Virus record (IMG/VR): IMGVR_UViG_3300032053_000007
Direction: 5' to 3' (one strand)
Origin: a virus
Lineage: Duplodnaviria; Heunggongvirae; Uroviricota; Caudoviricetes
Length of the DNA stretch: 64,000 nucleotides
The number at the start of each line of letters is the position of its first letter. The stretch's first letter is position 1. The notes under the pieces were generated by a model. It made no database searches. It was not told the origin of the DNA and saw only the letters and a program-made list of their open reading frames with translations. The position numbers were made by a program, and so were the translations under genes. Shown here piece by piece: positions 44,986 to 62,091 of this stretch.

Positions 44986-45873
44986 ATGAACTCAGAATTT
45001 GAAAAGATTCATGCAAAGGTCGAATCAGCACTTGAAGGTGCTGGCATCTACGTCAAAGGCATCGAGTTCGTGGACGAACATGGCTACATTGAAAAGTCAA
45101 GAGCGATTCTTGAAATTGTCGGCAACCTTAGATTAGTCGGCGAAACGGGGACGGGCAAAACAACTCTTGTTCACAAGTTGGCTGAATTGTTAGAGGTTCC
45201 GCTTTTTGAAATTGTCTTAACACGGGACGTGACAAAGTGGGATTTGCTGGCATGTGATACTCTGAAAGCTGGAAGCACAGAAACAAGAGATGGAATCATA
45301 ATTCAATGGTTGAACAGCGAGAAAGGTCTGCTTTACATAGACGGGTTCAACTATGCAGAACCATCGATAATTTCACTTCTGGAATCATTGGCAGACTTTA
45401 GGGGAAACGTGTATATTCCAGAATACAAGAAGCAATTCACACGGACAGCACAGCACTATCTCGTTATCAGCTATAACCCCTCAGAAAAATCGGGTTACTC
45501 TGGGACATTCATCGAGAACATTGCAACCATTAGACGATTTGAAGGTCTGATAATCGAATACCTTAGCCCCCAGAAAGAACGCGAATTGGTAAAGAAGTTC
45601 TCTGGAAACTATGACTTTTCTGCGAAGTTCGTAGAAATTGCCAAAAAGACGCGAACCGAATACGAGAACGGAAAACTTAGAACGCCCCTCACGACAGGCA
45701 ACCTAATAAACTACGGCAAACTCTACAAAGCGAAGATGTCCGAAGAGGACATAATCGATATAGCAAGTTCGCTTTACACCGCAAGAGAAGAGCGCAATTT
45801 ATTTAGGTCGTTCTTCGAAGATAGCTCTGAGATAGACGTAGAAAAGTTGAAAAAGAAAGAAGAGGATACCTAA
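44986..45873 (+). CDS. AAA+ ATPase, MoxR/CbbQ/CobS-like (AAA_5 type)
   Basis: Walker A GETGTGKTT; LLYIDGFNYA Walker B region (Gly where Glu is expected); IRRFEG like the MoxR DRF motif. Confidence 0.7.
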   Translation: MNSEFEKIHAKVESALEGAGIYVKGIEFVDEHGYIEKSRAILEIVGNLRLVGETGTGKTTLVHKLAELLEVPLFEIVLTRDVTKWDLLACDTLKAGSTETRDGIIIQWLNSEKGLLYIDGFNYAEPSIISLLESLADFRGNVYIPEYKKQFTRTAQHYLVISYNPSEKSGYSGTFIENIATIRRFEGLIIEYLSPQKERELVKKFSGNYDFSAKFVEIAKKTRTEYENGKLRTPLTTGNLINYGKLYKAKMSEEDIIDIASSLYTAREERNLFRSFFEDSSEIDVEKLKKKEEDT

Positions 45874-49021: not shown

Positions 49022-49266
49022 CTGATTTGAAGAACGTAGCTCGAAAACTTGGGCATATTGGATTTGGAGTTCGAATTGAGGGGGACAAACTAATCGTTTA
49101 TGAGGGATGGATGAAAGATTGTCTGCTCATTCTGGGCGTTAAATCCTATAAGGACGGGCTGGCGAAGAGGGCGAAGCAATTAGAGGCTGAATATGGGCTT
49201 AAACTCGAAAGTTGTAAGATACGGAACAGTATTTCGAGAATGGTCTTTCTGGAACAACCTTTATAA
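49018..49266 (+). CDS. hypothetical protein
   Basis: track ORF; reads through cassette 49235 and stops in its TATA (tttaTAAg). Confidence 0.5.
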   Translation: MTDLKNVARKLGHIGFGVRIEGDKLIVYEGWMKDCLLILGVKSYKDGLAKRAKQLEAEYGLKLESCKIRNSISRMVFLEQPL

Positions 49267-49267
49267 G
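49235..49267 (+). promoter_or_regulatory. GAGCATGG-box/TATA promoter cassette
   Basis: cGAGAATGGtctTTCT..TTTATAAG; offset 24. Confidence 0.6.
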
Positions 49268-49284
49268 TCACGGTGTTGTTCTAG

Positions 49285-49300
49285 TTAATCAGGTGATTAA
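49285..49300. promoter_or_regulatory. TTAATCA-NN-TGATTAA palindrome on predicted TSS
   Basis: ttaatcaggtgattaa. Confidence 0.55.
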
Positions 49301-49464
49301 TACGGGAAAACTTCATAGGATAAAGCGCAAACTCGCAAAACGCAAAGTCACGGGGGTCTGCCGTTGAACGTCCGAAAACTTAGACGTTTCTATTCAAGTC
49401 TGCCGACAGGCTCACATCACGGTCAACCGTTCGCACATGGCAAGTTTAGAGAGGGGTTGAAAGC

Positions 49465-49662
49465 GTGACGGATTTAAACTTAAAGGCTCTTCTGAAAAAT
49501 CACGATGTCCCTATTTGCATTGATGAGGCAGAATGTCCTCATAAGGTTCACAGAAAGAACCCCTATAAACCTCTATGCTTATTGCCTTTTCTTAACTATA
49601 AACATAAAGAATGCAAAGCGCAAAGATACCCAGACGCAAAGGAAAAGGTGAACTTTACATGA
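49465..49662 (+). CDS. VxFT-tail mini-protein
   Basis: GTG start; ends EKVNFT. Confidence 0.55.
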   Translation: MTDLNLKALLKNHDVPICIDEAECPHKVHRKNPYKPLCLLPFLNYKHKECKAQRYPDAKEKVNFT

Positions 49663-49952: not shown

Positions 49953-50068
49953 CTGACTGTGCTATAATAGTGTTCGACAAAGATACAGGAAAACTTAGAT
50001 GTTTCATTCATACGGCAGAGTTTAATCGCTGGCTAGACAGAAGAAAAGAACGGGTGATTTTCTCGTGA
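49949..50068 (+). CDS. VxFS-tail mini-protein (39 aa)
   Basis: ends ERVIFS, GTGA junction. Confidence 0.45.
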   Translation: MTDCAIIVFDKDTGKLRCFIHTAEFNRWLDRRKERVIFS

Positions 50069-50259
50069 CGTTTCAAGTTGGCGATAAGGCAAAGCTAAAA
50101 TACGCTGGCTTTAGGCATTGCCCCAAAGGTTCATTTGTTAAAATTACAAGAATTATGTCAAACAGAACCATTGATATAAGATATAAAACCGAAAGGTATG
50201 TTGTATCTGATACAGATTTAATCGAATTACAACAAAAGGAGAAGGTATGTTTCACATGA
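50065..50259 (+). CDS. VxFT-tail mini-protein
   Basis: ends EKVCFT. Confidence 0.6.
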   Translation: MTFQVGDKAKLKYAGFRHCPKGSFVKITRIMSNRTIDIRYKTERYVVSDTDLIELQQKEKVCFT

Positions 50260-50462
50260 CAACAATAGACGATAACGGTTATATCGAGTACGATTATGAG
50301 GATTTGTGTACGGAATGCAAGATGCACGATAAATGTCACGAAAACAGTATTGATTATGATGAAATTGATAAATGTTGTCAAGAACTTAATTCTCAAATGA
50401 AAGCGCGAGGAACCAAACTATATAAAACCCCAGAGCCAAAAGAGAAGGTGTTATTCACATGA
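50256..50462 (+). CDS. acidic Cys-rich VxFT-tail mini-protein
   Basis: trimmed to junction ATG; CTECKMHDKC; ends EKVLFT. Confidence 0.6.
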   Translation: MTTIDDNGYIEYDYEDLCTECKMHDKCHENSIDYDEIDKCCQELNSQMKARGTKLYKTPEPKEKVLFT

Positions 50463-50605
50463 CGGGCGTTCTCGTTATACCGTGTTCAAAATGTGGCAGA
50501 CCTCTCAATATTCCCGTTAAAAACTATGCGGATGCAAAGAAGATAGGTTCAAGAATGTGTAAGCAATGCAACAACAAAGGAAGAGAAAAGGTCTGTTTCA
50601 CATGA
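50459..50605 (+). CDS. zinc-ribbon VxFT-tail mini-protein (48 aa)
   Basis: CSKCG..CKQC; ends EKVCFT. Confidence 0.55.
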   Translation: MTGVLVIPCSKCGRPLNIPVKNYADAKKIGSRMCKQCNNKGREKVCFT

Positions 50606-50820
50606 TTTGTTCTAAATGTGGAAACGAGTTCAAACAACGAATTAACGAGAAATTATGCTTTAATTGTATGATGTACGAGCTAGACAGGCTCAGAGAGCAA
50701 GGCGAACGCATAGACAAGTTACTTTCCGATAACCCAGAGATAATGGAACTCTTAGACAAAATGAAGGCGCGAGAGATTATTAACCGTCTAAAGGGACGGG
50801 AAACGGTGACGTTCACATGA
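50602..50820 (+). CDS. zinc-ribbon VxFT-tail mini-protein
   Basis: trimmed to junction ATG; CSKCG..CFNC; ends ETVTFT. Confidence 0.6.
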   Translation: MICSKCGNEFKQRINEKLCFNCMMYELDRLREQGERIDKLLSDNPEIMELLDKMKAREIINRLKGRETVTFT

Positions 50821-50996
50821 TTTGTAAAGTTTGTGGAAAGAGATTCACTTGCAATAATATATGTGATAGTTTGCATAAATTGAGCGCGAACGTGTGTTAT
50901 TGCAAACCATGTTCAATAGAAAGAGGATTCAAAGGCAATACCCTAAATGTTTGTTATAAAAAGGCTAACGAAAAAGAACAGGTCGAGTTCACATGA
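50817..50996 (+). CDS. ZR-F family zinc-ribbon mini-protein (59 aa)
   Basis: CKVCGKRFTCNNIC..CYCKPC; ends EQVEFT. Confidence 0.6.
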   Translation: MICKVCGKRFTCNNICDSLHKLSANVCYCKPCSIERGFKGNTLNVCYKKANEKEQVEFT

Positions 50997-51232
50997 TAAA
51001 TTCAAACCGTAAAAAGTGTTGTATTTGCGGTAAAAAAGGTTATGCAAATTATCACGATATACAGACTGAGGAAAAACTTTATCTTTGCGACTCACATGGT
51101 ATTTTGTGGGAAAAATCACAAGAACGACATGACTTCTTTCACGATAGAAGAGATAATACTTGGGAGTCTTTTTTCAAAAAGTGGCTATTAAAACGCAAAG
51201 TAACAACAAAAGAGAAGGTCAATTTCACTTGA
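50993..51232 (+). CDS. zinc-ribbon VxFT-tail mini-protein (ZR-W-like)
   Basis: CCICGK..CDSHGILW; ends EKVNFT. Confidence 0.6.
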   Translation: MINSNRKKCCICGKKGYANYHDIQTEEKLYLCDSHGILWEKSQERHDFFHDRRDNTWESFFKKWLLKRKVTTKEKVNFT

Positions 51233-51456
51233 AAGAGAAAGGTTGCTTTAACTGTTCGAACAAGAGGAATCTCGACAAGATTTATTATAAATGCACAGAG
51301 ATGCGCTCACAACCTAACTTAACTGAACCGAACGGGAAAGCTACAGGATTTTTAAGGGACGTGAAAACTCCGTTAGGTAGTCCTAGACATTCTTATCGTT
51401 TAGGTTGTTCATGTGAGTATTGGAAGAGTGAACGGGAAACGGTTGAATTTACATGA
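51229..51456 (+). CDS. GCFNC family mini-protein
   Basis: trimmed to junction TTG; KGCFNC..YRLGCSC; ends ETVEFT. Confidence 0.6.
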   Translation: MKEKGCFNCSNKRNLDKIYYKCTEMRSQPNLTEPNGKATGFLRDVKTPLGSPRHSYRLGCSCEYWKSERETVEFT

Positions 51457-51695
51457 CAAAATTTAAAGGACGTTGTAGAAAATGCAAAAGAATAGTTAGC
51501 GGTCAATTTCCAATTAAACTATTATTGGCTGTTCTCTGCGAAAGTTGTAACGAAGAATGGAAGAGATATTTTTCAAAAAGGTTTGACAAAGAACATGGGA
51601 CGCTTTTAGGTTTTCATACGCCCATTGAAGAATGGGAAAAGGAAAAGTGGTTTAAGGATTTTCTCAACAGCAAAGAGAAGGTAGAGTTTACATGA
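51453..51695 (+). CDS. ZR-W family zinc-ribbon mini-protein
   Basis: CRKCK..CESCNEEW; ends EKVEFT. Confidence 0.65.
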   Translation: MTKFKGRCRKCKRIVSGQFPIKLLLAVLCESCNEEWKRYFSKRFDKEHGTLLGFHTPIEEWEKEKWFKDFLNSKEKVEFT

Positions 51696-51907
51696 TTCAA
51701 CTAACAAAAACCGATTATAATATTTGTATTTCATCAATAAGCTATTATAGTTGCACTAATTGTTGGAAAAACAGCCTAAAAGTTTATCGTTTGAAAGGAA
51801 AAGTACAAGAAAGAGGAAAAATTGGCATAACTTTAACGTGGCTCTGCCCTGACTGTTTCGAAAAAATCATCAAAAAGAAAGACATAGAACAGGTTCAATT
51901 TACATAA
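51692..51907 (+). CDS. zinc-ribbon VxFT-tail mini-protein
   Basis: CTNC..CPDC; ends EQVQFT with ACATAA (no start formed). Confidence 0.6.
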   Translation: MIQLTKTDYNICISSISYYSCTNCWKNSLKVYRLKGKVQERGKIGITLTWLCPDCFEKIIKKKDIEQVQFT

Positions 51908-51948: not shown

Positions 51949-52275
51949 ATGATTCAGATGCGATTAAAGTCTATTGGAAATTTTGACGTTGAAATAAAAG
52001 AGAAAACTGAATCACAAAAAAAGAGACAACGAGAACAAATAAAAATGTGGGGAAAAAAACACCCAGAGCGAACTAAAATGAAGAATGCAAAACGGCGAGA
52101 ATTAGGGTTTGACCCTTTTAATGGGAGATTTATTGGCTCTGTTGCTCATCATATAGATTTTGAATGTGTTATCTATATTCCCAGAGAACTTCATATTTCT
52201 ATTCATCATTGCGTTTGGACAGGTCAGGGTATGGCAGAAATAAATGATAAAGTTTTCGAATGGCTTACCACATAA
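51949..52275 (+). CDS. HNH-like protein (weak)
   Basis: VAHHIDFE..LHISIHH; TATA 51917; alternative ATG 51958. Confidence 0.4.
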   Translation: MIQMRLKSIGNFDVEIKEKTESQKKRQREQIKMWGKKHPERTKMKNAKRRELGFDPFNGRFIGSVAHHIDFECVIYIPRELHISIHHCVWTGQGMAEINDKVFEWLTT

Positions 52276-52305
52276 ACGTGGCGACAAGTGGTTTTTAGCG
52301 AATTT

Positions 52306-52321
52306 TTAATCAGTTGATTAA
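52306..52321. promoter_or_regulatory. TTAATCA-NN-TGATTAA palindrome
   Basis: ttaatcagttgattaa, 3 nt upstream of box. Confidence 0.55.
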
Positions 52322-52356: not shown

Positions 52357-52370
52357 GCGCGCTGTACTGA

Positions 52371-52386
52371 TTAATCAGTTGATTAA
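52371..52386. promoter_or_regulatory. TTAATCA-NN-TGATTAA palindrome on predicted TSS
   Basis: ttaatcagttgattaa. Confidence 0.55.
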
Positions 52387-52782: not shown

Positions 52783-52783
52783 A

Positions 52784-52816
52784 CGAGCATGGACTTTTTC
52801 CCGAAACATTTATATA
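52784..52816 (+). promoter_or_regulatory. GAGCATGG-box/TATA promoter cassette
   Basis: cGAGCATGGactTTTT..TTTATATA; offset 24. Confidence 0.6.
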
Positions 52817-52837
52817 CTTGATTGACATCTGTAATAA

Positions 52838-53090
52838 CATGACGCACTCGCGTCTAACTAAAGGGCGCGTAAGACCGAAGGACGCACAACGTCCAAAAAC
52901 TTACCGACCCTTCAAAGTCGCTAGGGTTACGTTCGAAATAAGCGACAAGAACGGAACCGCACAAGACCGAAGGTTTGTCTCGCGGTAAAACGGGGCATTC
53001 CACCAACTTGTGCTTCAACTGACAAAAAAACCACAAACCACGTCCGAAAACGGGGCATGGCACACTCTCCATGCCCCCTCTCTCCTTTTT
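52838..53090 (+). other. promoter-to-terminator unit: GC-rich RNA or leaderless 49-aa basic ORF (52838..52987)
   Basis: ATG at predicted TSS; atypically GC-rich; repeats aagaccgaagg x2 and aaacggggcat x2; ends in hairpin plus T5. Confidence 0.35.
53052..53090 (+). terminator. hairpin plus T-run terminator
   Basis: ggggcatgg-cacactct-ccatgcccc ..ccttttt. Confidence 0.55.
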
Positions 53091-53122
53091 AAGTATGGTC
53101 TTTCTATGACAAGGTTTATATA
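53091..53122 (+). promoter_or_regulatory. GAGCATGG-box/TATA promoter cassette (variant box)
   Basis: aAGTATGGtctTTCT..TTTATATA; offset 24. Confidence 0.55.
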
Positions 53123-53144
53123 GGACGCAGACATATTACTTTTG

Positions 53145-53262
53145 GGTTCGTGCGGAACACTCTCAGATAGTCGGCGAGTTAATGAGCCATGAAAAACCGC
53201 TAGGGTATGGGAGTTAGGCGTGGGTAATGGCACTCACGGTGTATCAGCCACACGAACTCACT
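53145..53262 (+). ncRNA. candidate small RNA (about 120 nt)
   Basis: cassette-driven; no ORF over 11 aa; terminal 10-bp stem gttcgtgcgg / ccacacgaac. Confidence 0.4.
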
Positions 53263-53265
53263 AAT

Positions 53266-53298
53266 TGAATATGGTCTTTCTTAGCGAAAGTTTATATA
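53266..53298 (+). promoter_or_regulatory. GAGCATGG-box/TATA promoter cassette (variant box)
   Basis: tGAATATGGtctTTCT..TTTATATA; offset 24. Confidence 0.55.
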
Positions 53299-53319
53299 GT
53301 TGGGTGTGTATTATACTCT

Positions 53320-53436
53320 TCCGCACGTTGAAAAATCCTTATGCGGTGCGATACGACATAGGGCAAATTTCAACCTCTACATTAAATAAAACTAGGGTCA
53401 CGGCGAAACGCACTAGCCAAGACCCCCCTAAAATTT
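53320..53436 (+). ncRNA. candidate small RNA (about 115 nt)
   Basis: cassette-driven; no ORF over 6 aa before next cassette. Confidence 0.4.
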
Positions 53437-53469
53437 TGAGCACGTTCTTTCTTAGCAAACCTTTATATA
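53437..53469 (+). promoter_or_regulatory. GAGCATGG-box/TATA promoter cassette (variant box)
   Basis: tGAGCACGTtctTTCT..TTTATATA; offset 24. Confidence 0.6.
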
Positions 53470-53503
53470 GGACGGCGAACACTACATCTCAAAGGTTGAA
53501 ACT

Positions 53504-53893
53504 ATGAAATTGCAAGAACTTAGGGAAAAGTTGACATCGAAGGACGTTAAACCCTCAGAGTCATGGCTAGAAAATCAATATCCAGCACAACCATCTGAAC
53601 GATACTCTAAGCTAACATATTTGAACCTAGCGAACATTGAGGACAATTTCGGCAAAGAGGCAAAAGAACAACTAGAAAAATATCTTCTAAAGAACCCAGA
53701 AAAACGTGTCGTTGTTCTCGCGGAACTCACAGAGAAGGGCAATGTCAAAAAGCGACCCAGAATCTTCGTAGATTCAGGTGTTGGTTATGACAACTTTGCG
53801 TCATACTACGGAATCTATGAGCTATTCGCGTGTTCCGTTCACATGCACGGATTCATTGAAGTTTTCCAGAATATCAAAGACGGACAACAATAG
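53504..53893 (+). CDS. hypothetical protein
   Basis: track ORF. Confidence 0.6.
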   Translation: MKLQELREKLTSKDVKPSESWLENQYPAQPSERYSKLTYLNLANIEDNFGKEAKEQLEKYLLKNPEKRVVVLAELTEKGNVKKRPRIFVDSGVGYDNFASYYGIYELFACSVHMHGFIEVFQNIKDGQQ

Positions 53894-53904: not shown

Positions 53905-54252
53905 ATGAAGAACTTCCTAACATCAAAAGACAAATTCCCACCCGTCCATTGCAATGTTTTCCAAGACTATGACAGATTAGACGCGCTGGCAAAGAAACGG
54001 GGCTACCACGCTATTGAACTAGGAAATGACGACAAAATTACGACCCGTTCAGGCACAGGGCTTCAAAATGAACACCTTCATTCTGGATGGATAACAACTA
54101 TGGGTGAATCTGGAACAGACCCGAAAGCAATGACCGAATTGCTGAAAGACAAGATAAAAGAGTGCGAAACGCGCGGAGAAACCGTTATTATTGGCTTCTG
54201 CCAAACGGGATGGTTCTCAGTCGGATATACGCTTTACTTGAAGGACGCTTAA
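53905..54252 (+). CDS. hypothetical protein
   Basis: track ORF. Confidence 0.6.
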   Translation: MKNFLTSKDKFPPVHCNVFQDYDRLDALAKKRGYHAIELGNDDKITTRSGTGLQNEHLHSGWITTMGESGTDPKAMTELLKDKIKECETRGETVIIGFCQTGWFSVGYTLYLKDA

Positions 54253-54450: not shown

Positions 54451-54481
54451 TGCATGGACGTTCTACCACAATCTTTATATA
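54449..54481 (+). promoter_or_regulatory. GAGCATGG-box/TATA promoter cassette (variant box)
   Basis: tGTGCATGGacgTTCT..TTTATATA; offset 24; about 105-nt leader. Confidence 0.55.
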
Positions 54482-54608
54482 GCTGTTTGATTATTGTATT
54501 ACTCGTATGAGCACGGGAACAAGGTTTCCAAACTACGTCCTTAGCTGACGAGTGATGGACGCTTATTGGAGAATCGTCCGTGTTCCGCGCTAATCTAAGT
54601 GGTCTAAA

Positions 54609-55031: not shown

Positions 55032-55064
55032 CGAGCATGGTCTTTCTACCACAACCTTTATATA
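55032..55064 (+). promoter_or_regulatory. GAGCATGG-box/TATA promoter cassette
   Basis: cGAGCATGGtctTTCT..TTTATATA; offset 24; no CDS downstream. Confidence 0.6.
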
Positions 55065-55089
55065 CCCGTTTGACATACTACTCTATCAA

Positions 55090-55147
55090 GGGCGAAGGGA
55101 TATTGTTCCATTTTTTCACCGTCCTTTCTCGCGCTTTCCCTTCGCCC
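55090..55147 (+). other. 11-bp perfect hairpin at 5-prime end of a noncoding transcript
   Basis: gggcgaaggga (55090) / tcccttcgccc (55137), followed by C/T-rich tract to about 55330. Confidence 0.4.
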
Positions 55148-55335
55148 GTTCTACTCATTCCTTCTAACCTCTCTAACCCTCTACAAACTTAGACGATTTC
55201 ACTAACACTTTTTGTTAAAGACCTCAGAACCCCCGACCCAGAGAGCCTTTACACTTTTTGATTTCACCACGTCAACCGAAACTGACCCAAGTTCTGCCCA
55301 AGCCGTCTTGAGCCTCTCTCACGAAACCCAGATTT

Positions 55336-55351
55336 TTAATCAACTGATTAA
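55336..55351. promoter_or_regulatory. TTAATCA-NN-TGATTAA palindrome
   Basis: ttaatcaactgattaa. Confidence 0.55.
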
Positions 55352-55672
55352 CGAATCGTAGCTCGTAACGAGGCTGTGCACCCTTTACCCCGACCTCTAA
55401 CCATATAACACAAATTGTTAAGCAAATTCCCGAACCCCAGAGAACCCACGTCCGACCCCTAACCCAGACCCTCTAACGACCTCTAATCACTAACCCCCCC
55501 AAGAGAGCCATATACCCCCAAAAGTGGAGTCCATGCTTAAAAGAAATGCTCGATAAAAGATACTGATGACCTTTACATACGTAAAGGAAAGGGTTGTCAT
55601 ACGTAAAGGGTCTATGGAGTGGAATGTTGGCATACGACAACGGCGTGATTGACATAGTGCTGTAGCTCTATT

Positions 55673-55688
55673 TTAAACAGGTGATTAA
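55673..55688. promoter_or_regulatory. palindrome (one mismatch)
   Basis: ttaaacaggtgattaa. Confidence 0.5.
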
Positions 55689-55813
55689 CGACCCCATTAT
55701 AAAGAAGTCCCCCCCCTCTAGCTCCCCTGAATGCCAAAACAAGCCTAGAAAAAAGACGTTTTGGCAAACGGTGACTTTATTATCCGAAAGGCTCGCGGAA
55801 CTGTGGAGAATTT

Positions 55814-55829
55814 TTAATCAGGTGATTAA
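55814..55829. promoter_or_regulatory. TTAATCA-NN-TGATTAA palindrome
   Basis: ttaatcaggtgattaa. Confidence 0.55.
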
Positions 55830-56192
55830 GCAGGGCGAACCGACAGGTAGAAGGGACGGCGTGAACTCTCTGACCAGAAAATAATTGGAACCAAAAAAAC
55901 GCCTATGTGCGCTTATGTGATATTCTCAGTTGCATTCTATGGACAATTTCCTGTTAACCGAGGCGTTACCCCAAAAGTTGCACTTTTTGTTACACTAGAA
56001 GTTGTGCTAGACCAAAACGTTTATATACCCCCTATTTAAGCGTATCGCCGATAGCCTTATATAGTAGCTATTTAAACCTATCGGTTGCTTATATATGTGC
56101 AAACTTAGCAAAATTCGAACCATAAAGTACAACTCTCTATTATCACGTCCTTCGAACCATATACCGCAACTCTTATATAGATGCCATACTTA

Positions 56193-56225
56193 CTTATAAA
56201 CGTTTGCCCAGAACGACCATGCTCG
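56193..56225 (-). promoter_or_regulatory. GAGCATGG-box/TATA promoter cassette (minus strand)
   Basis: reverse complement reads cGAGCATGGtcgTTCT..TTTATAAG; offset 24; no convincing CDS downstream. Confidence 0.5.
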
Positions 56226-56346
56226 ATTTAGAGGCTGATTCAGGGCGGAAACAACTAACGGAGCACACTTACAGATTCGAACTCGCGCCGATGACTAGCT
56301 CTGAGACTGATTAACTAAAACGAACGTCATCGAACGGTGAATTCAT

Positions 56347-56526
56347 TAGGACTGATGACAATTTTGACGTTCTAACATTACCCCGAACTCCACGATTTAG
56401 CCTTATTCGACTAAACGGGGCGTACTCGCTCAATATCGTTGAGCAAATATAAAGGGAATTGAGCGTATTGCTCCGAACGACCCGCTCACAGGTTGATTTT
56501 AGAAAACGGGCATTATCCACAGTCCT
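56347..56526 (+). repeat. conserved 180-nt noncoding element, copy 2
   Basis: same landmarks and spacing as 42341-42520; hairpin cgctcaat/attgagcg shows a compensatory T-A to C-G change. Confidence 0.5.
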
Positions 56527-56792
56527 ACCCGCCATTGCTGGCGCGAACGGGCTTCGAACTTGGTTGTACTTTGAGTTACATTGAATATACATCATGCGTT
56601 ACTATGTAATATACGCTTAACGCGAACAACTCCAACTCTCTCAAACATACGTTCTCAGCGCACTATATATACGTTTGCTTTTTCCTGTACGACACATCTA
56701 CAAGTCAATGGTCGAACTGTTGGTTTAAGCTACACTTTAATGGAAACGTTTATAAGAGAGGGTGCGAACGTTATTCTAAGGACGTGAAACAC

Positions 56793-57287
56793 TTGAACGA
56801 TAAGGACGAATTGACACGACTTGAAAACTTAGCGCAAAAACTAGGTTTTACCGTGATATATAATTTAACCCTTAGCTGGAATCATTCGAAGGTTTCCTTT
56901 TATCCATGTCGAAGAATCCTTATCGGAACTAAGAACTATTCACCAAATTCAAATATCGGTTATGGAACCATACCTGATAAGGTTAAAGCGTTAATTCTGA
57001 ATCACGAGCTAGGGCATATTGTCGTATATGAAACGCTTTACCCTAACATGGATTTAGCTGATTTTTGTCTCTCAAATGATTCAAAATTCTTGGTACAACA
57101 AGAGATGTACGCATGGAAAACCGCAATAAATGAATCGCTCGATGATAATTCTGACCCTCTAGTGTTGGAATTGATACAAGAATCGATAAACCAATACATT
57201 TATTGTGAGTATATCGGAACATGCACAATAGAATCTCAGCAAGAACTACAGCAAAAAATAATTACTAAGTTTACACGTACAAAATAG
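56793..57287 (+). CDS. small HExxH metallopeptidase-like protein
   Basis: LNHELGHIVVYE; TTG 56793 six nt after AAGGACGTG (track used GTG 56784). Confidence 0.55.
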   Translation: MNDKDELTRLENLAQKLGFTVIYNLTLSWNHSKVSFYPCRRILIGTKNYSPNSNIGYGTIPDKVKALILNHELGHIVVYETLYPNMDLADFCLSNDSKFLVQQEMYAWKTAINESLDDNSDPLVLELIQESINQYIYCEYIGTCTIESQQELQQKIITKFTRTK

Positions 57288-57340
57288 TACACAAAGGTTT
57301 ATTAAGGACGGTGCTATTATACTCTTAAGGACGTGGAAAG

Positions 57341-57634
57341 ATGGTCGAAATAAAAATCTATGTCGTAACAACGGAAAACCCAGATAAGACAAAACTAGAT
57401 TCTGTGAAAGTTCAACTATGCGGTGCATTCGGCGGTTTAACCGTCATTAATAACTGTGAGGGTCTATGGCTAGATAACGGAAAATTATACGCGGACAACG
57501 TACAGATTTGGCTCATAGAAAGTTCAACTGTGGTTTCTCCTGAACAAATAATGAAATATGGTGAAGACTTAAAGGCAATATGCAAACAAAAATCTCAAAT
57601 GATAAGCATAAACGGACACCCATATTTTGTTTGA
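57341..57634 (+). CDS. hypothetical protein
   Basis: own TATA, tatact initiator region, AAGGACGTG SD. Confidence 0.6.
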   Translation: MVEIKIYVVTTENPDKTKLDSVKVQLCGAFGGLTVINNCEGLWLDNGKLYADNVQIWLIESSTVVSPEQIMKYGEDLKAICKQKSQMISINGHPYFV

Positions 57635-57645
57635 AACAATTTCCC

Positions 57646-57655
57646 TCTTTTTTTG
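57646..57655 (+). terminator. oligo-T terminator
   Basis: ctctttttttg after stop 57634. Confidence 0.45.
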
Positions 57656-57708
57656 ATATAAACCTTTATATAGAACGCTGACATTATACTATTGAAGGAC
57701 GTGTGAAC

Positions 57709-58302
57709 GTGGAACACTTACAACTTAGCGCAATATGCGAACACTTAACACAACTAGAGGACACGGACGCGGAAGGACTCTTCGATTTAAGCCTAGAATC
57801 ACAAGTGCAGTTCTTAGAATTCTTTAAACACTATAAGGACTGTGAAAAAGGCAAGGCTAAAGGAAAGGGCTTTGGAAATTGCTGGAAATTGAATTCTAAG
57901 CGTAATCCTAACGTATTTACCCATTTAGAGGCACAATTTAAGAGATTAGTGGACGACTTTAACCTAGAGTTGAACCATGAGGTACGCATAAAAGTTAAGG
58001 ATAGGTGCAACCGCTGGCACATTTTCAAATTAGACTTCTTTGACCCTAAGACCCAAATTGACATAGAAATAAGCCCAAATTGGCACAAGAATTACCTTTT
58101 AGTCGTAAGACGTGACGCATTGCGTAGAAGGCTCTTAAAACGGGTCGGGATTCGAAGTCTAACGGTTCCTGTAGTATATAAGGGCAAACACGGACACATA
58201 GATTATATAAGAGCGAAACGAATAATAAAGATAATCAAAAGTGCAACCGTCAGCCCTAACTCACTAGACTACTATACAACTAATAAAGAGGTGAATGAAT
58301 AA
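57709..58302 (+). CDS. endonuclease-fold protein (DUF559/Vsr-like, weak)
   Basis: KLDFFDPKTQIDIEISPNWH resembles DF..(h)IE.DG..H core; GTG 57709 after AAGGACGTG. Confidence 0.4.
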   Translation: MEHLQLSAICEHLTQLEDTDAEGLFDLSLESQVQFLEFFKHYKDCEKGKAKGKGFGNCWKLNSKRNPNVFTHLEAQFKRLVDDFNLELNHEVRIKVKDRCNRWHIFKLDFFDPKTQIDIEISPNWHKNYLLVVRRDALRRRLLKRVGIRSLTVPVVYKGKHGHIDYIRAKRIIKIIKSATVSPNSLDYYTTNKEVNE

Positions 58303-58535
58303 TGGAATATTTCGGAAATTGTCCCAAATGCAGACACCACACGATAGTTAAATCCGTGAAGGCTATAAAAAGTGCAACTGCGAGACTACCACAGCGTACA
58401 AGCGAATGTATCAACTGCGGAACAACTGCAAGAATAACCATAATCGGCGAAATAGTTAAACTTGCAGGGATAACTAACGTGGTCAACCCAGAGTTTGCAA
58501 CGGTAAACAGACTTGTGGTGCGCCTGTGGAGTTAA
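58302..58535 (+). CDS. zinc-ribbon protein
   Basis: CPKCRHH..CINCGT; TAATG overlap. Confidence 0.55.
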   Translation: MEYFGNCPKCRHHTIVKSVKAIKSATARLPQRTSECINCGTTARITIIGEIVKLAGITNVVNPEFATVNRLVVRLWS

Positions 58536-58537
58536 AC

Positions 58538-58577
58538 CACCGTGACATGCACGGTGCAACTTTCCCTTCTTTTTTTA
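58538..58577 (+). terminator. hairpin plus T-run terminator
   Basis: caccgtg-acatg-cacggtg ..cttcttttttt. Confidence 0.55.
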
Positions 58578-58642
58578 GTACAACTTTCTATTAACTGAAA
58601 ACTTAGCGAATTTTTAATTTTCTTCCCTGTTCGAATATTGTC

Positions 58643-58762
58643 TTCGATTCACCACAATGACGTGCTATTGAACCATACTCTCCATTGTGATGAATTTGTG
58701 TCCCACTTCGAGGTATGGTCTTTTCCCATGCTTTTCTTCGAATGTTGACTTCGATTCATCAC
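58643..58762. repeat. TTCGATTCAYCAC iteron-like repeats with hairpin
   Basis: ttcgattcaccac 58643, gtgatgaat 58687 (inverted), ttcgattcatcac 58750; related set at 59592-59780. Confidence 0.5.
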
Positions 58763-58830
58763 GAATTTTGGAAACATTGTTGGCATGGATGGAACGGTAC
58801 GGCGGAGCCGTGCGGCGAACTTAGCATTTT

Positions 58831-58846
58831 TTAATCAACTGATTAA
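58831..58846. promoter_or_regulatory. TTAATCA-NN-TGATTAA palindrome
   Basis: ttaatcaactgattaa, 20 nt upstream of TATA 58867. Confidence 0.55.
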
Positions 58847-58909
58847 CTCAGGACTGAGTAGGAATGTTTATAAGACTCGATGCTATTATACTCTTAAGGA
58901 CGTGGAATA

Positions 58910-59170
58910 ATGGCAAGAATCTTTAAAGTGAATGAAACCACAGAAATACTCTGTGAATTTGTGAGCACAAGAAGCGGTTTTAGACATGATGCAAGGCTGT
59001 TCAAAAATGGCAATGAATACGAAAAGGCTAAAGTATGCTACGTAAACAGAACATGGGAGAAATTTGACTTCGAAACCGTCATACATAAACTGCTAGAAAA
59101 GACGGACGCTTTGACCGAAACAGAAAAAGAGCAATTCAGAACCGAATTAAACAACAAATACGGCTATTAA
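58910..59170 (+). CDS. hypothetical protein
   Basis: TATA 58867, AAGGACGTG SD. Confidence 0.6.
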   Translation: MARIFKVNETTEILCEFVSTRSGFRHDARLFKNGNEYEKAKVCYVNRTWEKFDFETVIHKLLEKTDALTETEKEQFRTELNNKYGY

Positions 59171-59206
59171 CCCCCCTACCCCCTTTTTGTTTTTTTGGTG
59201 ATAATC

Positions 59207-59308
59207 ATGGAACAAAAAAGACGAATTCGGACACAACCGAAATTAAAAGGAAATCTCGGCAAACTGTTTAATAAGCGATTTTTTGAACTGCTCGAACAGA
59301 ACCGATAA
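59207..59308 (+). CDS. basic mini-protein (33 aa)
   Basis: SD TGGTGATAATC-ATG; flanked by T-run terminators. Confidence 0.4.
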   Translation: MEQKRRIRTQPKLKGNLGKLFNKRFFELLEQNR

Positions 59309-59445
59309 AACTCCCTCTTTTTTTGACTTGCAAACTTAGCGGAAAAACAAATTTTAACTTAATATATACCTATGTGCGTTACACCCCAGACAGTTACCCC
59401 CAGAAGTTCAACTTTCGGTTGACCACAACCTTTATATAGGTCGCC

Positions 59446-59497
59446 ATACCGAAACGTTTATATACTACCCTATACCGAAACCCTTATATACTACCTA
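59446..59497 (+). repeat. two 26-bp tandem repeats each carrying a TATA box
   Basis: ataccgaaacSYttatatactaccYt x2. Confidence 0.55.
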
Positions 59498-59591
59498 TTT
59501 GACTTCATAGTTCCTGTTCTAACCATACAACACCGTCACTTATAAACCTTCCTATTTAACTGTTCAACAATAATACAGTTAGTACATTGTG

Positions 59592-59780
59592 TTCGATTCA
59601 TCACAACGATGAGAGCGAAAATTTCGTTCGAGAAAATATACATGAAAACACCATAGTACGAGTAACCACTTCGAAAACACACATATGGGGCAATAAAAAG
59701 ACCATTGTGGTGAATCGTAGCCAATTTCGAAGCATGGGAAAAGCATGGTAAATTCTCGAATCGTGACTTCGATTCACCAC
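59592..59780. repeat. TTCGATTCAYCAC iteron-like repeats (second set)
   Basis: 59592 (+), 59707 (inverted), 59768 (+); central ttcgaagcatgggaaaagcatgg resembles reverse complement of 58716-58752. Confidence 0.5.
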
Positions 59781-60024
59781 GCATAGGAACAAAAGTTCAC
59801 CGTGAGTTCAACTGTGGGTGACATTCAATTCAAGTGATGCGTGTCCATGTAATATACGCTTAACGCGAGGCTCTGGTTATGAACGTGGGCACGGGACTAT
59901 TTAAACGTTTGCTTTTAACTGTTTAACGTGACTACACATGACCATATAAACTGTATATTTGACCTACACTTTAAAGCCAACCTTTAAATACTACGTTCGA
60001 CACGTTACCTAATGGTGAACAAGG

Positions 60025-60498
60025 ATGCCAATAAAAACCGTGGAATTTGTCTTATATCTCTCGGACGTTGTAAACTTAGGCTTTTCAGAATTGACGATTC
60101 AAAAAATTAAGCAGAGATTGATAGACCACTTTTCATTTGGTACGAATTTACCAGAGAATTACGTTGTAATTTATCCTCATATTGTAGCGTTTGAGATGCA
60201 CAACGAGGATAAAATTGTTCGCAAATTTAACTATACAGTTCTGCATGAATTGATACACGGATTACTTGAAGAGAGTGAACTTAATACAGAAGAGATGTGC
60301 CACGCTTGGAGTATGATACTAACCGATGACCGTGAATCAAATGTAAGCGGTCAAGGACACCACTATTATCAAATGTTAAAAGGACGAACAGAAATCGTTG
60401 TAAACGAAGAACCCAAATTCGAGGCGGAAAAGCTAAACGCGGCGCGGAATTTGTCCAGAATGCGATTAGTGAAACACCATGAGCTAACAGGACTTTAA
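60025..60498 (+). CDS. small HExxH metallopeptidase-like protein
   Basis: VLHELIHGLLEE. Confidence 0.55.
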   Translation: MPIKTVEFVLYLSDVVNLGFSELTIQKIKQRLIDHFSFGTNLPENYVVIYPHIVAFEMHNEDKIVRKFNYTVLHELIHGLLEESELNTEEMCHAWSMILTDDRESNVSGQGHHYYQMLKGRTEIVVNEEPKFEAEKLNAARNLSRMRLVKHHELTGL

Positions 60499-60581
60499 AC
60501 CGCGAAGTATATAAACCTTCTGGTTTTACCCAAACCTTTATTAATGACCGTGCTATATTATATCTCAAGGATGTTGAAAAA

Positions 60582-60884
60582 ATGGCAAACGTATTTAGTG
60601 TTAAACACTACGTAAAAATTGCCGAGCTAATAGGCAAGGCAAAAGACTTAGACGAATTTTACAGATTTTTCGTAAAGTTCGCACAAGCCGAAAACCCAAA
60701 ATTCTCTATTGAGAAGTTCTATAAAGCGGTTCAGAAAAGCCACCAATTCGGCGGAATCGGGTGCGGTGCGCCCGAATTAGCCGAGAAACCCCAAAAAGAG
60801 TGGGAATTTCCTCAAGAGGCTATAGAATCGGACGGTCAACCTGACGAAGCCCAAGAATGGCACGATTTCGACCCTGACGCTTAA
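60582..60884 (+). CDS. hypothetical protein
   Basis: own TATA (tttattaa); track ORF. Confidence 0.6.
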   Translation: MANVFSVKHYVKIAELIGKAKDLDEFYRFFVKFAQAENPKFSIEKFYKAVQKSHQFGGIGCGAPELAEKPQKEWEFPQEAIESDGQPDEAQEWHDFDPDA

Positions 60885-60901
60885 AGCGTCCCTCTTTTTT
60901 T
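60876..60901 (+). terminator. hairpin plus T-run terminator
   Basis: gacgc-ttaaa-gcgtc cctcttttttt (overlaps stop). Confidence 0.55.
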
Positions 60902-60992
60902 ATCCATAACATGTAACATAACATGTTTTCCATGCTTTGACCATGCCTGACATGACATAAAGGTTTATATAAGTCGGTTGATATAGTAGTAC

Positions 60993-61166
60993 ATGGCGAG
61001 AAAAATGAACACACACAACAACACACAAGTAAAAACTCATGTCGGGACTTTTCAAGTGAAATACCACCGTGACGGCGGAAAAGTCGGCAGTACGAGCGTG
61101 ATTATCCGAAAGAAGCTCGTTTATGAACCCTATGACATTTTAGCCTATAAATTCGGAGCAAAATAA
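60993..61166 (+). CDS. hypothetical small protein (57 aa), leaderless
   Basis: ATG 22 nt after TATA 60964-60971. Confidence 0.45.
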   Translation: MARKMNTHNNTQVKTHVGTFQVKYHRDGGKVGSTSVIIRKKLVYEPYDILAYKFGAK

Positions 61167-61168
61167 AA

Positions 61169-61291
61169 ATGCCAAAAACTTGTTTAGGAAATTTGACTCG
61201 TGACTGTTCTGGGACATGTCCAGATTATCAGGAATGCCTTAAAAAATACATGGACATGGAAATAAGAACGTCAGAACATAACAGAGATTAA
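61169..61291 (+). CDS. Cys-rich mini-protein (40 aa)
   Basis: C..C..C..C; ATG 2 nt after previous stop. Confidence 0.4.
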   Translation: MPKTCLGNLTRDCSGTCPDYQECLKKYMDMEIRTSEHNRD

Positions 61292-61522
61292 TGCAACCGA
61301 GGCGGTTCACGGGAAGTTTAACTTTAAGTTGGTTTCTAATCATGGTATCCGTGTCCATGTAATATCCCGTTTTTTCTCGCGCTGAGGTTGTCGCCCTCAA
61401 TAGTAACGTGTGCATCGAGGTATATAAACGTTTGCTTTCAAGTGTAGAACAGGACTACAGTTTAGCTACACAACAACGTTTATAAGTCACGGTGATATAA
61501 TATAGTTAAGGACGTGTGTGAC

Positions 61523-62035
61523 ATGGACGCATTAAAAAAAGCTCTTGCGGTTAAGCGTAAAATGATTCACCCAGAACGACAAAATTTTTGTCTAAACAAA
61601 CTTAGTGAATTCTCGAAACGCTTAATATTAGGAATTCAAGACACACCTTATATTTTGCTTCCTGACCAAAAACAAACCTATTCTATCGATTTGAACCTTA
61701 AGCAATGCCGAAAAGCTAAACGGGACGGTTTACAGAACGTAATTCGTGCATCATGGTCAAATCTGCCTTTTAGAAATAAAAGCGAATTTGATATTATTTA
61801 TGCTGATAATTTCGGCGATAGAAAAGACATTAACGAAATAGCGCACGAAGTAAATCGACTGAAAACCAAAAAGCTCATCGTTTTAGGTGCGGCTAGAGCA
61901 TTCAGGAAGCCAGCGAAGCGTAAATGGAAATATCTGCTCAAAACGAGGTTCCCTAAGCTAAAGCTCCAAGAATTACGGAAGGACGGCGGTTATTGTTCCA
62001 CGGTGCAATGGACAGCAATACTGTATAAGCGTTGA
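61523..62035 (+). CDS. hypothetical protein
   Basis: trimmed to ATG 61523 after AAGGACGTG; NLPFRNKSEFDIIYAD only weakly methyltransferase-like. Confidence 0.55.
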   Translation: MDALKKALAVKRKMIHPERQNFCLNKLSEFSKRLILGIQDTPYILLPDQKQTYSIDLNLKQCRKAKRDGLQNVIRASWSNLPFRNKSEFDIIYADNFGDRKDINEIAHEVNRLKTKKLIVLGAARAFRKPAKRKWKYLLKTRFPKLKLQELRKDGGYCSTVQWTAILYKR

Positions 62036-62091
62036 ACACTTAAATAGGAACGTTTATATAGCTCGCCGCATACGTTACTATTGGTGAAAAA

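What the first reader, a model, noticed from the sequence alone, without database searches (positions are those of the whole stretch)
52784..53469. Four promoter cassettes in tandem within 700 bp, three of them driving short noncoding units
Cassettes at 52784, 53091, 53266 and 53437 follow each other at 175-307 bp spacing. Only the last precedes a normal gene (53504).
- Unit 1 (about 52838-53090) is GC-rich, carries internal repeats (aagaccgaagg x2, aaacggggcat x2) and ends in a 9-bp hairpin plus T5. It could alternatively be a leaderless, very basic 49-aa ORF.
- Unit 2 (about 53145-53262) is enclosed by a 10-bp terminal stem.
- Unit 3 (about 53320-53436) has no ORF longer than 6 aa.

The 5-prime ends of units 2 (cgtgcgg) and 3 (ccgcacg) are complementary. 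The whole region looks like a small-RNA cluster using the element's standard promoter.
Basis: seen in the sequence. Interest (0 to 1): 0.68.

Follow-up and report, generated by a model that had tools for sequence, protein, structure and literature searches.

The report
Small structured RNA genes in virus
A 700-base gap between two genes of an uncultivated, probably archaeal, virus-like element holds at least two conserved genes for small folded RNAs of unknown family, each with its own copy of the element's standard promoter.

Summary
Four copies of the element's promoter cassette (ATGG box, 9 nt, TTTATATA) lie at 52785, 53091, 53267 and 53438. Only the last precedes a gene.

- **Unit 1 (52839-53090) and unit 3 (53320-53437)** are conserved in the three other lineages of this clade for which DNA was recovered.
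  - Their helices keep pairing through compensatory changes. The unit 1 terminator hairpin has four different 9-bp stems. The unit 3 hairpin has four doubly changed pairs around an invariant loop.
  - Their reading frames are not conserved, so they are non-coding RNA genes.
  - They match no Rfam family, tRNA, phage or plasmid record.
- **Unit 2 (53144-53262)** is found only in the window's own lineage. It sits in a variable slot that holds a small protein gene in two relatives and about 80 nt in a third.

Function is inferred, not shown. Unit 1 has a 5' hairpin, an unpaired CA-rich tail with an invariant CACGUCCGA, and a terminator. That motif is complementary to AAGGACGUG, which starts the transcripts of a second promoter class at 56.7-61.5 kb. 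This suggests translational masking. A protein-binding role is equally open.

These are new RNA families of a familiar kind, in a poorly known virus group.

The parts
52785..52838 (+). Promoter cassette 1: GAGCATGG box at 52785-52792, BRE-like CGAAACA, TATA octamer at 52809-52816, and an A/T-rich stretch before the predicted start
   Evidence: Conserved in L019 and L008 (82-84% identity).
52839..53090 (+). Unit 1 RNA gene, about 250 nt. It has a 5' hairpin GACGC/GCGUC (52841-52854), a second hairpin, the conserved core, an unpaired tail and a terminator.
   Evidence: Fold z-score is -4.8. Conserved in L019, L005 and L008. RNAalifold predicts 54 pairs, 11 of them with changes on both sides. The 49-codon ORF is not conserved.
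52901..53014 (+). Unit 1 conserved core. Helices are GACCCU/AGGGUU, CGUUC/GAACG, GCACAAG/CUUGUGC and UGUCUCG/CGGGGCA. GUCGC/GCGAC is an alternative that would make a pseudoknot.
   Evidence: 86-93% identity in relatives. 98.4% of cells pair against 31-45% when partners are slid, and two pairs changed on both sides. Single copy in every element searched.
53014..53051 (+). Unit 1 unpaired CA-rich tail, with the invariant motif CACGUCCGA at 53039-53047
   Evidence: Unpaired in both the minimum-energy and centroid folds. The motif is invariant in four lineages and duplicated in L005 and L008. It is complementary to the GGACGUG(G) leaders. Class-B genes rank 2, 3, 8, 13 and 14 of 178, and 1 of 300 shuffles does as well.
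53052..53090 (+). Unit 1 terminator: 9-bp hairpin with loop CACACUCU, then a C/U-rich stretch and T5 (53086-53090)
   Evidence: Four lineages have four different stems, all 9/9 paired, and keep the loop. T runs are enriched just upstream of cassettes: 6 of 27 against 1.9 expected.
53091..53143 (+). Promoter cassette 2: AAGTATGG box, with TATA at 53115-53122
   Evidence: Present only in the window's own lineage.
53144..53262 (+). Unit 2, a lineage-specific ORF-free unit closed by a 9-10 bp terminal stem (53144-53152 with 53251-53259). It has no T-run terminator.
   Evidence: Fold z-score is -1.6. No homologue in any locus. Stop codons in all three frames. It fills a slot that holds a 124-aa gene in L019, a 102-aa gene in L008 and about 80 nt in L005.
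53267..53319 (+). Promoter cassette 3: GAATATGG box, with TATA at 53291-53298
   Evidence: 86-89% identity in relatives, with the ATGG, BRE-like and TATA parts kept.
53320..53437 (+). Unit 3 RNA gene, about 117 nt.
- Outer stem: GUUGA (53327-31) with UCAAC (53370-74).
- Inner stem: CCUUAUG (53337-43) with CAUAGGG (53357-63).
- Invariant loop: CGGUGCGAUACGA (53344-56).
- 3' hairpin: GGGUC...GACCC (53395-53425).
- End: AAAAUUUU (53430-37).
   Evidence: 117/117 identical in L005 and L019, and 87% in L008. In L008, four inner-stem pairs changed on both sides and one on one side. Identity starts at 53319, 21 nt after the TATA octamer. The 3' half differs from L008 by a single 1-nt deletion. Fold z-score is -2.8. 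No paralogues.
53438..53503 (+). Promoter cassette 4 (GAGCACGT box, TATA at 53462-53469) and the ribosome-binding site AGGUUGAAA (53493-53501) of gene 53504
   Evidence: The ribosome-binding site is a perfect 9-nt complement of UUUCAACCU (53368-53376) in unit 3.
53504..53893 (+). Adjacent 129-aa gene of unknown function. It served as the anchor for finding relatives.

Best explanation
**What it is**

The gap 52783-53503 holds separate transcription units for small structured non-coding RNAs. Each unit uses the element's standard promoter: an ATGG box, a purine-rich BRE-like stretch, and TTTATATA. The geometry is archaeal, with the start about 22 nt after the TATA octamer.

Unit 1 (about 250 nt) and unit 3 (about 117 nt) are genuine RNA genes under selection for structure. 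Unit 2 is a recent, lineage-specific module in a slot that exchanges content between lineages.

**Shown**
- The cassettes are present and enriched.
- Units 1 and 3 are conserved and show compensatory pairing.
- No reading frame is conserved.
- Both units are single-copy.

**Inferred mechanism (about 0.3)**

Unit 1 would act in trans. It has a protective 5' hairpin, a structured core, an unpaired CA-rich tail and a terminator hairpin with a U run. The tail carries CACGUCCGA once or twice. This would pair with the AAGGACGUG(G) sequence that forms the 5' end and ribosome-binding site of the transcripts from the second, box-less promoter class (56780, 57329, 57697, 58898, 61510). Translation of that gene set would be held back.

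Unit 3 may act on the neighbouring gene 53504. That gene's ribosome-binding site, AGGUUGAAA, is complementary to UUUCAACCU in unit 3. Action could be in trans, or in cis after read-through of its weak T4 stop.
For: **Promoters**
- TTTATATA occurs 31 times against 4.7 expected. The full cassette occurs 9 times against 0.
- Start codons lie 19-39 nt after the octamer at most cassettes.
- The ATGG-box-plus-TATA layout persists in distant relatives L075 and L080.

**Archaeal affinity**
- The TATA sequence equals the methanogen box A consensus (my own knowledge).
- T5 or longer runs are enriched just upstream of cassettes (P = 0.008). They are depleted on the coding strand: 124 against 307 A runs.
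- The best family matches of the KaiC-like ATPase are archaeal: thermo_KaiC_2 at 2e-32, then RadB and ArlH.

**RNA genes**
- Unit 3 is 117/117 identical in L005, where the next gene is 90% identical and third codon positions 82%. It is 87% identical in L008, where third positions are 66%.
- In unit 3, four pairs changed on both sides in one stem around an invariant 13-nt loop.
- In the unit 1 core, 98.4% of cells pair against 31-45% for slid controls.
- The unit 1 terminator has four different stems, all 9/9 paired. The 5' hairpin changed from GACGC/GCGUC to GAAGC/GCUUC.
- Reading frames are broken in relatives.
- G+C is 0.45-0.52 against 0.38 for the window.

**Mechanism lead**
- The tail is unpaired in the predicted folds.
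- The motif is invariant in four lineages and duplicated in two.
- GGACGUG sits at the start of 5-7 transcripts in every lineage that carries unit 1.
- The class-B genes rank 2, 3, 8, 13 and 14 of 178, and only 1 of 300 shuffles does as well.
- A diverged unit after the same upstream gene in L073 also has a CA-rich stretch with CACGUCC.
Against: **General**
- There are no expression data of any kind.
- Only four lineages carry unit 1, and there are only two distinct unit 3 sequences. Covariation statistics are therefore thin: 21 to 31 of 500 shuffles reach the observed values for the unit 1 core.
- Mosaic blocks of identity exist. Gene 53905-54252 is also 100% identical in L019 and 99.7% in L005. 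The perfect identity of unit 3 in L005 and L019 could therefore be recent exchange. The case for selection rests mainly on the comparison with L008.

**Mechanism**
- The class-B target set was defined after I noticed the complementarity, so the test is partly circular.
- Complementarity of the whole units to all 178 ribosome-binding sites is not above chance (P = 0.3-0.7).
- The UUUCAACCU of unit 3 is paired inside its own outer stem. Two other genes have 9-nt matches that are equally long.

**Host and unit 2**
- The host domain is inferred, not shown.
- Unit 2 has no comparative support.
Confidence: 0.55

Rival explanations
1. Units 1 and 3 are structured RNAs that work by binding a protein, not by base-pairing. 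They could be a decoy, a sponge or a scaffold for a viral or host protein. The repeated motifs would be the binding sites: AAGACCGAAGG x2, AAACGGGGCAU x2, CACGUCCGA x1-2, and the shared module CUAGGGUyACG..CGAAA.
For: - The motif repeats are conserved in all lineages.
- The 13-nt apical loop of unit 3 is invariant while its stem was completely replaced. This is typical of a recognition loop.
- CUAGGGU occurs in all three units, which account for 3 of its 4 sites in the window. It recurs upstream of the homologous gene in distant relative L014.
- Overall antisense complementarity to ribosome-binding sites is not above chance.
Against: - No partner protein is identified.
- The neighbouring 129-aa protein has no recognisable fold.
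- CTAGGGT/AACCCTAG also recurs in a non-coding stretch of L075, so the motif may act at the DNA level.
Confidence: 0.25
2. The units are not separate RNAs. Transcription from cassettes 1-3 reads through, so the region is a long, multi-promoter, structured 5' leader that controls gene 53504 in cis. For example, unit 3 would sequester the ribosome-binding site.
For: - Unit 3 ends in only four T residues, and unit 2 has no T run at all.
- Unit 3 always lies directly upstream of this gene in the four lineages that have it.
- UUUCAACCU in unit 3 is a perfect complement of the gene's ribosome-binding site.
Against: - Unit 1 ends in a conserved, compensated 9-bp hairpin plus T5.
- A full cassette with all conserved parts lies between unit 3 and the gene, at the usual 34 nt from the start codon.
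- Homologues of the gene in other lineages lack the units altogether.
- In L019 and L008 a protein gene sits between units 1 and 3.
Confidence: 0.12
3. The conservation reflects DNA-level function, or simply recombination. The stretch would be a regulatory or replication-associated region, or promoter-bounded modules shuffled between lineages, with no functional RNA product.
For: - The stretch lies 1.6 kb from a 1.7-kb ORF-poor region with convergent cassettes, iteron-like CCTCTAAC repeats and palindromes.
- The cumulative GC skew flattens here.
- Modules bounded by cassettes differ between lineages, and blocks of 100% identity occur elsewhere.
Against: - Compensatory changes that keep base pairs in several helices are not expected for DNA sites.
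- Identity in unit 3 starts at the predicted transcription start, not at the cassette.
Confidence: 0.06
4. Unit 1 encodes the leaderless basic 49-aa protein (52839-52988), or unit 3 lies inside an 80-codon gene (53265-53507).
For: - The ATG at 52839 coincides with the predicted transcription start.
- The 80-codon frame is open in the window, L005 and L019, and ends in an ATGA overlap with gene 53504.
Against: - The 49-codon frame stops after about 27 codons in L019. It has no start codon in L005 or L008, and indels shift the frame.
- The 80-codon frame has stops in all frames in L008. It would also have to contain two complete promoter cassettes.
- Substitutions are compensatory in RNA stems rather than synonymous.
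Confidence: 0.02

Closest known systems
Trans-acting small regulatory RNAs that mask ribosome-binding sites. Examples are bacterial Hfq-type sRNAs and archaeal sRNAs such as Methanosarcina mazei sRNA162 and sRNA154 (my own knowledge; review PMC3432209 was listed but not read).
   Same: Unit 1 has its own promoter, a 5' hairpin, an unpaired C/A-rich segment complementary to a purine-rich ribosome-binding sequence, and a terminator hairpin followed by a U run.
   Different: There is no sequence or Rfam relationship. Unit 1 is carried by a virus-like element. The proposed targets are a whole promoter class, not one mRNA. At about 250 nt with a large conserved structured core, it is longer than a simple antisense RNA needs to be.
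Virus-encoded small stable RNAs with their own promoters. Examples are phage phi29 packaging RNA (about 120-174 nt) and phage T4 stable RNAs C and D (my own knowledge).
   Same: They are short, highly structured, abundant-type RNA genes in a viral genome. They lie in tandem and are non-coding.
   Different: There is no similarity to the Rfam models. No packaging-motor gene is adjacent. The T4 RNAs lie within a tRNA cluster, and this window has no tRNA.
Non-coding RNA genes of AT-rich archaea, recognised by locally raised G+C (Klein, Misulovin and Eddy 2002; my own knowledge)
   Same: The units stand out at G+C 0.45-0.53 in a 0.38 background and have archaeal-type promoters.
   Different: Those RNAs were cellular: C/D box, H/ACA and Hgc RNAs. 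These units match none of them.
RNA anti-CRISPRs and solitary repeat units of viruses (Camara-Wilpert et al. 2023; my own knowledge)
   Same: Small promoter-driven non-coding units in a mobile element that are highly conserved in sequence.
   Different: No CRISPR-like repeat or mini-array is present. The host's repeats are unknown, so mimicry could not be tested.

Membership tests
Any Rfam 15 family | Score at or above the family's gathering threshold, or a convincing E-value, against the covariance model | tested here: not met
   No match at gathering thresholds in the whole window. No match at E up to 10 inside 52784-53503.
tRNA / tmRNA / tRNA-like | Cloverleaf detected by ARAGORN | tested here: not met
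   No genes found in the window.
Archaeal H/ACA guide RNA (considered for the unit 3 5' hairpin) | Conserved ACA/ANA box just 3' of the lower stem | tested here: not met
   The window has ACA four nt after the stem (53379-81). L008 has GCC at that position.
Archaeal C/D box sRNA | C box RUGAUGA near the 5' end and D box CUGA near the 3' end, with a size of 50-70 nt | tested here: not met
   Reading the sequence shows no RUGAUGA/CUGA pair in the proper positions in any unit. The sizes are 117-250 nt.
CRISPR mini-array / solitary repeat (RNA anti-CRISPR) | Sequence resembling a CRISPR repeat of the host | not testable with these tools
   No repeat array in the region. The host and its repeats are unknown.
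Retron non-coding RNA | Adjacent reverse transcriptase gene | tested here: not met
   No reverse transcriptase domain in the 19 window ORFs of 150 aa or more that were scanned. The neighbouring genes have no Pfam match.
Trans-acting antisense sRNA (functional class, for unit 1) | Own promoter and terminator, with an accessible conserved seed complementary to target ribosome-binding sites | tested here: inconclusive
   The architecture is met. The seed is invariant. Target ranking is significant, but the target class was defined post hoc. The global test is not significant. There are no expression or interaction data.
Archaeal BRE/TATA promoter (for the cassettes) | TTTAWATA box with a purine-rich element just upstream, a start about 22-27 nt downstream, and oligo-T termination | tested here: met
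   The octamer is enriched and strand-biased. It is preceded by CGAAA/GCAAA-type stretches. Unit 3 identity starts 21 nt after the octamer. T runs are enriched before cassettes and depleted on the coding strand. The transcription start itself is not mapped.
Protein-coding small ORF | Reading frame kept open in relatives | tested here: not met
   Frames are broken in L019, L005 and L008.

The most novel reading that the evidence does not exclude
Unit 1 is a virus-encoded 'anti-leader' RNA. Its repeated CACGUCCGA motif pairs with the common AAGGACGUG 5' end of every transcript from a second promoter class. One small RNA, made from the boxed (presumably earlier) promoter class, would then time the translation of a whole block of genes in an archaeal virus. 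Unit 3, with its invariant loop and possible loop-loop contact (GUGCG with CGCAC), would be a second riboregulator or ribonucleoprotein component of the same switch.
Probability: 0.15. Interest if true: 0.75.

Novelty: new member of a known kind. Interest (0 to 1): 0.5.

Why it matters
Very few non-coding RNAs are known from archaeal viruses, and none from this uncultivated group. The group is broad. Its VWA protein has 77 homologue clusters, on contigs up to about 148 kb, and three relatives are filed as viral genomes in IMG/VR.

Two new structured RNA families with clear boundaries, a uniform promoter and a candidate target motif would be a tractable entry point. They could show how such a virus, built almost entirely of tiny unknown genes, organises its gene expression.

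The result also shows that promoter-cassette counting can find RNA genes in this genome. About eight of roughly 37 cassettes drive ORF-free units.

Tried and rejected
**Searches with no result**
- Rfam at gathering thresholds and at lenient E-values found nothing in the units. ARAGORN found nothing.
- blastn of the region against phage and plasmid records found no match.
- Exact-pattern scans for the unit 3 and unit 1 cores in IMG/VR found nothing.
- The metagenome scan for unit 3 returned only three contigs of the same clade.

**Promoter-pattern scans**
- My first scan of IMG/VR used the wrong spacing, 10 nt instead of 9, so it is void.
- The corrected pattern gave only single hits per contig in GTDB genomes and IMG/VR. 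About 70 such hits would be expected by chance in the genome collection (my estimate), so I read them as chance. They gave no host clue.

**Searches for further copies**
- Covariance models of unit 3 (R1) and the unit 1 core (R2) found no paralogues in the window, and no homologues in 22 further loci.

**Target searches**
- Exact 11-mer complementarity of the units elsewhere in the window was at chance level.
- RNAduplex of whole units against ribosome-binding sites gave uninterpretable long-bulge duplexes.
- The longest-complement test was not significant.

**Other dead ends**
- The H/ACA reading of unit 3 was rejected because the ACA box is not conserved.
- The small-protein readings were rejected.
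- Literature searches for the sample accessions and for DUF7417 found nothing.
- I considered Borg elements as the identity of this element. I saw no pervasive perfect tandem repeats and did not pursue it.

Full report
**1. What the window is**

The window has about 185 small ORFs, almost all on the + strand, at G+C 0.38.

It matches no phage or plasmid record. It matches no representative genome except by single hits of the promoter pattern, which I read as chance.

Near-identical copies occur in several sediment metagenomes. Its largest protein carries an HExxH motif and a VWA domain and sits next to a MoxR-type ATPase. It has 77 homologue clusters, on contigs up to about 148 kb. Three relatives at 42-51% identity are filed as viral genomes in IMG/VR.

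The KaiC-like ATPase matches archaeal families best: thermo_KaiC_2 at 2e-32, then RadB and ArlH. I therefore treat the element as a virus-like element of an archaeon. This is an inference.

**2. The cassettes**

- TTTATATA occurs 31 times against 4.7 expected, almost always on the + strand.
- It is the core of a longer cassette of the form tGAGCATGGtCtTTCT, 9 nt ending in a CGAAA/GCAAA-type stretch, then TTTATATAGGACG. The full pattern occurs 9 times against 0 expected.
- About 35 boxed cassettes lie on the + strand. A start codon usually follows 19-39 nt after the octamer.
- The octamer equals the methanogen box A consensus, and the purine-rich stretch looks like a BRE (my own knowledge).
- T5 or longer runs, mostly without hairpins, are enriched just before cassettes: 6 of 27 against 1.9 expected, P = 0.008. 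They are depleted on the coding strand, at 124 against 307 A runs. This fits oligo-T termination.
- The ATGG-box-plus-TATA layout persists in distant relatives.
- From 56.7 kb onward a second promoter class appears. It lacks the box, and its transcripts would begin with AAGGACGUG a few nt before the start codon.

**3. The observation**

Only cassette 4 has a gene at the usual distance.

One correction is needed. A stop-free 80-codon frame crosses unit 3. It is broken in a relative.

**4. Relatives**

I used the flanking genes to find relatives (plus the pattern scan). Three further lineages carry the locus:

| Locus | Identity of gene 53504 (DNA) |
|---|---|
| L019 | 96% |
| L005 | 90% |
| L008 | 80% |

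More distant homologues of either flanking gene lack the units.

**5. Unit 3**

- It is 117/117 identical in L005 and L019. The promoter before it is 88-89% identical. In L005 the promoter after it is 85% and the following gene 90%; in L019 these are 96% each.
- Identity starts at 53319, which is 21 nt after the octamer. That is where an archaeal transcript would start.
- Against L008 the unit is 87% identical, while third codon positions of the neighbouring gene are 66%.
- The differences from L008 are concentrated in one stem. CCUUAUG/CAUAGGG becomes CUCGAA/UUCGAG. Four pairs changed on both sides and one on one side, around an unchanged 13-nt loop.
- The 3' half, about 52 nt, differs from L008 by one deleted base.
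- Caveat: gene 53905-54252 is also 100% identical in L019 and 99.7% in L005. Mosaic exchange could therefore explain the perfect identity in those two lineages. The L008 comparison carries the argument.

**6. Unit 1**

- The fold is much better than shuffles (z = -4.8).
- The core (52901-53014) is 86-93% identical in relatives.
- With a structure of five helices, 98.4% of cells pair, against 31-45% when partners are slid. Two pairs changed on both sides.
- The inner stem UGUCUCG/CGGGGCA becomes UAUCUCG/CGAGAUA in L005.
- The 5' hairpin changes from GACGC/GCGUC to GAAGC/GCUUC.
- The terminator hairpin has four different 9-bp stems, all fully paired, around the loop CACACUCU.
- GUCGC/GCGAC and GUUACGUUC/GAACGGAAC could form an H-type pseudoknot. 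Both helices are invariant, so this is untested.
- The 49-codon ORF is not kept in any relative.

**7. Unit 2**

Unit 2 is present only in the window's lineage. Its fold is unremarkable and it has no T run.

The same slot holds different content in relatives:
- L019 has a 124-aa gene, a paralogue of window gene 51949-52275 (49% identity, E = 6e-25).
- L008 has a related 102-aa gene.
- L005 has about 80 nt.

Other cassette-bounded modules also differ between lineages. Cassettes may therefore serve as recombination joints.

**8. What the RNAs are not**

They are not any Rfam family, tRNA, H/ACA or C/D RNA, CRISPR-like repeat, retron RNA or protein-coding ORF (see the membership table). Each is single-copy.

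**9. How they may work**

*Unit 1.* It has the layout of a trans-acting regulator. Its unpaired tail (53014-53051) carries CACGUCCGA. This motif is invariant in four lineages and duplicated in two. A similar CA-rich stretch with CACGUCC follows a cassette after the same upstream gene in the more distant L073.

The motif is complementary to GGACGUG(G) at the start of the class-B transcripts. These occur 5-7 times per lineage in every lineage that has unit 1. Duplex energies of the tail against 178 ribosome-binding windows rank the five class-B genes 2, 3, 8, 13 and 14. Only 1 of 300 shuffled tails does as well. I defined the class after seeing the match, so this is a lead and not a test.

*Unit 3.* Its UUUCAACCU is a perfect complement of the ribosome-binding site of the adjacent gene. 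However, that segment is paired inside unit 3, and equally long matches occur with two other genes.

*Global test.* Complementarity of the whole units to all ribosome-binding sites is at chance.

*Alternative.* A protein-binding role is equally compatible with the repeated motifs and the invariant loop. The neighbouring protein gave no clue.

**10. Verdict**

Two of the three units are real, new, structured RNA genes under the element's standard promoter. The third is a recent insertion of unknown value. Function is open.

This is a solid but not extraordinary finding. Its main value is as an entry point into an unstudied virus group.

Noticed in passing
window 16150-17998, 23532-25013, 35402-37047, 39502-41624, 50065-51907 and others: Dozens of tiny genes (40-100 aa, many with CxxC pairs) are chained head to tail by a conserved junction, aaAGAgAAGGTGcAaTTcACATGA. 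Each protein therefore ends in (K/R)E(K/V)V(Q/E)FT. The stop codon overlaps the next start (ATGA/TTGA), and the ribosome-binding site of the next gene lies inside the conserved C-terminus.
   Followed up: no
window 55037-56780: A 1.7-kb ORF-poor, C-rich stretch lies between a + strand cassette (55037) and a - strand cassette (56226 to 56195), so the two promoters converge. It holds iteron-like repeats (CGACCTCTAACCA and similar, CCCAGAGAGCC), three copies of the palindrome, and short tandem duplications at 56021-56083 and 56114-56173. It marks the switch from boxed to box-less promoters and a flattening of the GC skew. It may be a replication or control region.
   Followed up: partly
window 56749-63100: A second promoter class lacks the ATGG box. 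It has TTTATAAG/TTTATTAA, a TATACT-like stretch, and then AAGGACGTG 4-7 nt before the start codon (56780, 57329, 57697, 58898, 61510). The same pattern appears in L005, L008 and L019.
   Followed up: partly
window 52305-52320, 52368-52384, 47350, 49280, 25375, 25420, 55336, 55673, 55814: The palindrome TTAATCAnnTGATTAA recurs. It often overlaps the predicted transcription start or ribosome-binding site of a cassette. It looks like an operator for a dimeric regulator and is conserved in distant relatives L073 and L075.
   Followed up: no
window 25036-25800, 49260-49470, 54474-54608: Other cassettes also lack an ORF at the usual distance.
- 25036 is followed by about 700 nt of AT-rich, ORF-poor sequence.
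- 49260 is followed by about 200 nt containing ACGTCCGAAAAC, the same 12-mer as in the unit 1 tail.
- 54474 is followed by a 127-nt structured leader (fold z = -2.1) before a 45-aa membrane peptide gene.

   Followed up: partly
window 42715-44442 and 44986-45873: The 575-aa protein has an invariant HExxH motif and a C-terminal VWA domain (DxSxS). It sits next to a MoxR-type AAA_5 ATPase. Several homologues carry inteins with LAGLIDADG domains. This protein is a good marker for the whole virus group.
   Followed up: partly
window 51949-52275; L019 12435-12806 (-); L008 813-1121: A small gene family shares a C-terminal motif, HHID..(V/I)(I/F)(Y/F)IP..LH.SI.H.VWTG.GM.EIN. It occurs at different places in different lineages, including the slot between units 1 and 3. 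It has no Pfam match, and its behaviour suggests a mobile gene.
   Followed up: partly
L008 2247-3679: Relative L008 has an IS200/IS605-type insertion (Y1 transposase plus a TnpB-like protein) just downstream of the homologue of gene 53504.
   Followed up: no
window 59431-59495 and 63574-63783: Tandem repeats of 26, 49 and 58 nt each contain a CCTTATATACTA-type TATA-like motif. They could be arrays of promoter-like or protein-binding sites.
   Followed up: no
L075 12170-12260: In a distant relative, CTAGGGT and its complement AACCCTAG are repeated four to five times within 90 nt of a 1.6-kb non-coding stretch. The CTAGGGT motif shared by units 1-3 may therefore also be a DNA-level site.
   Followed up: no
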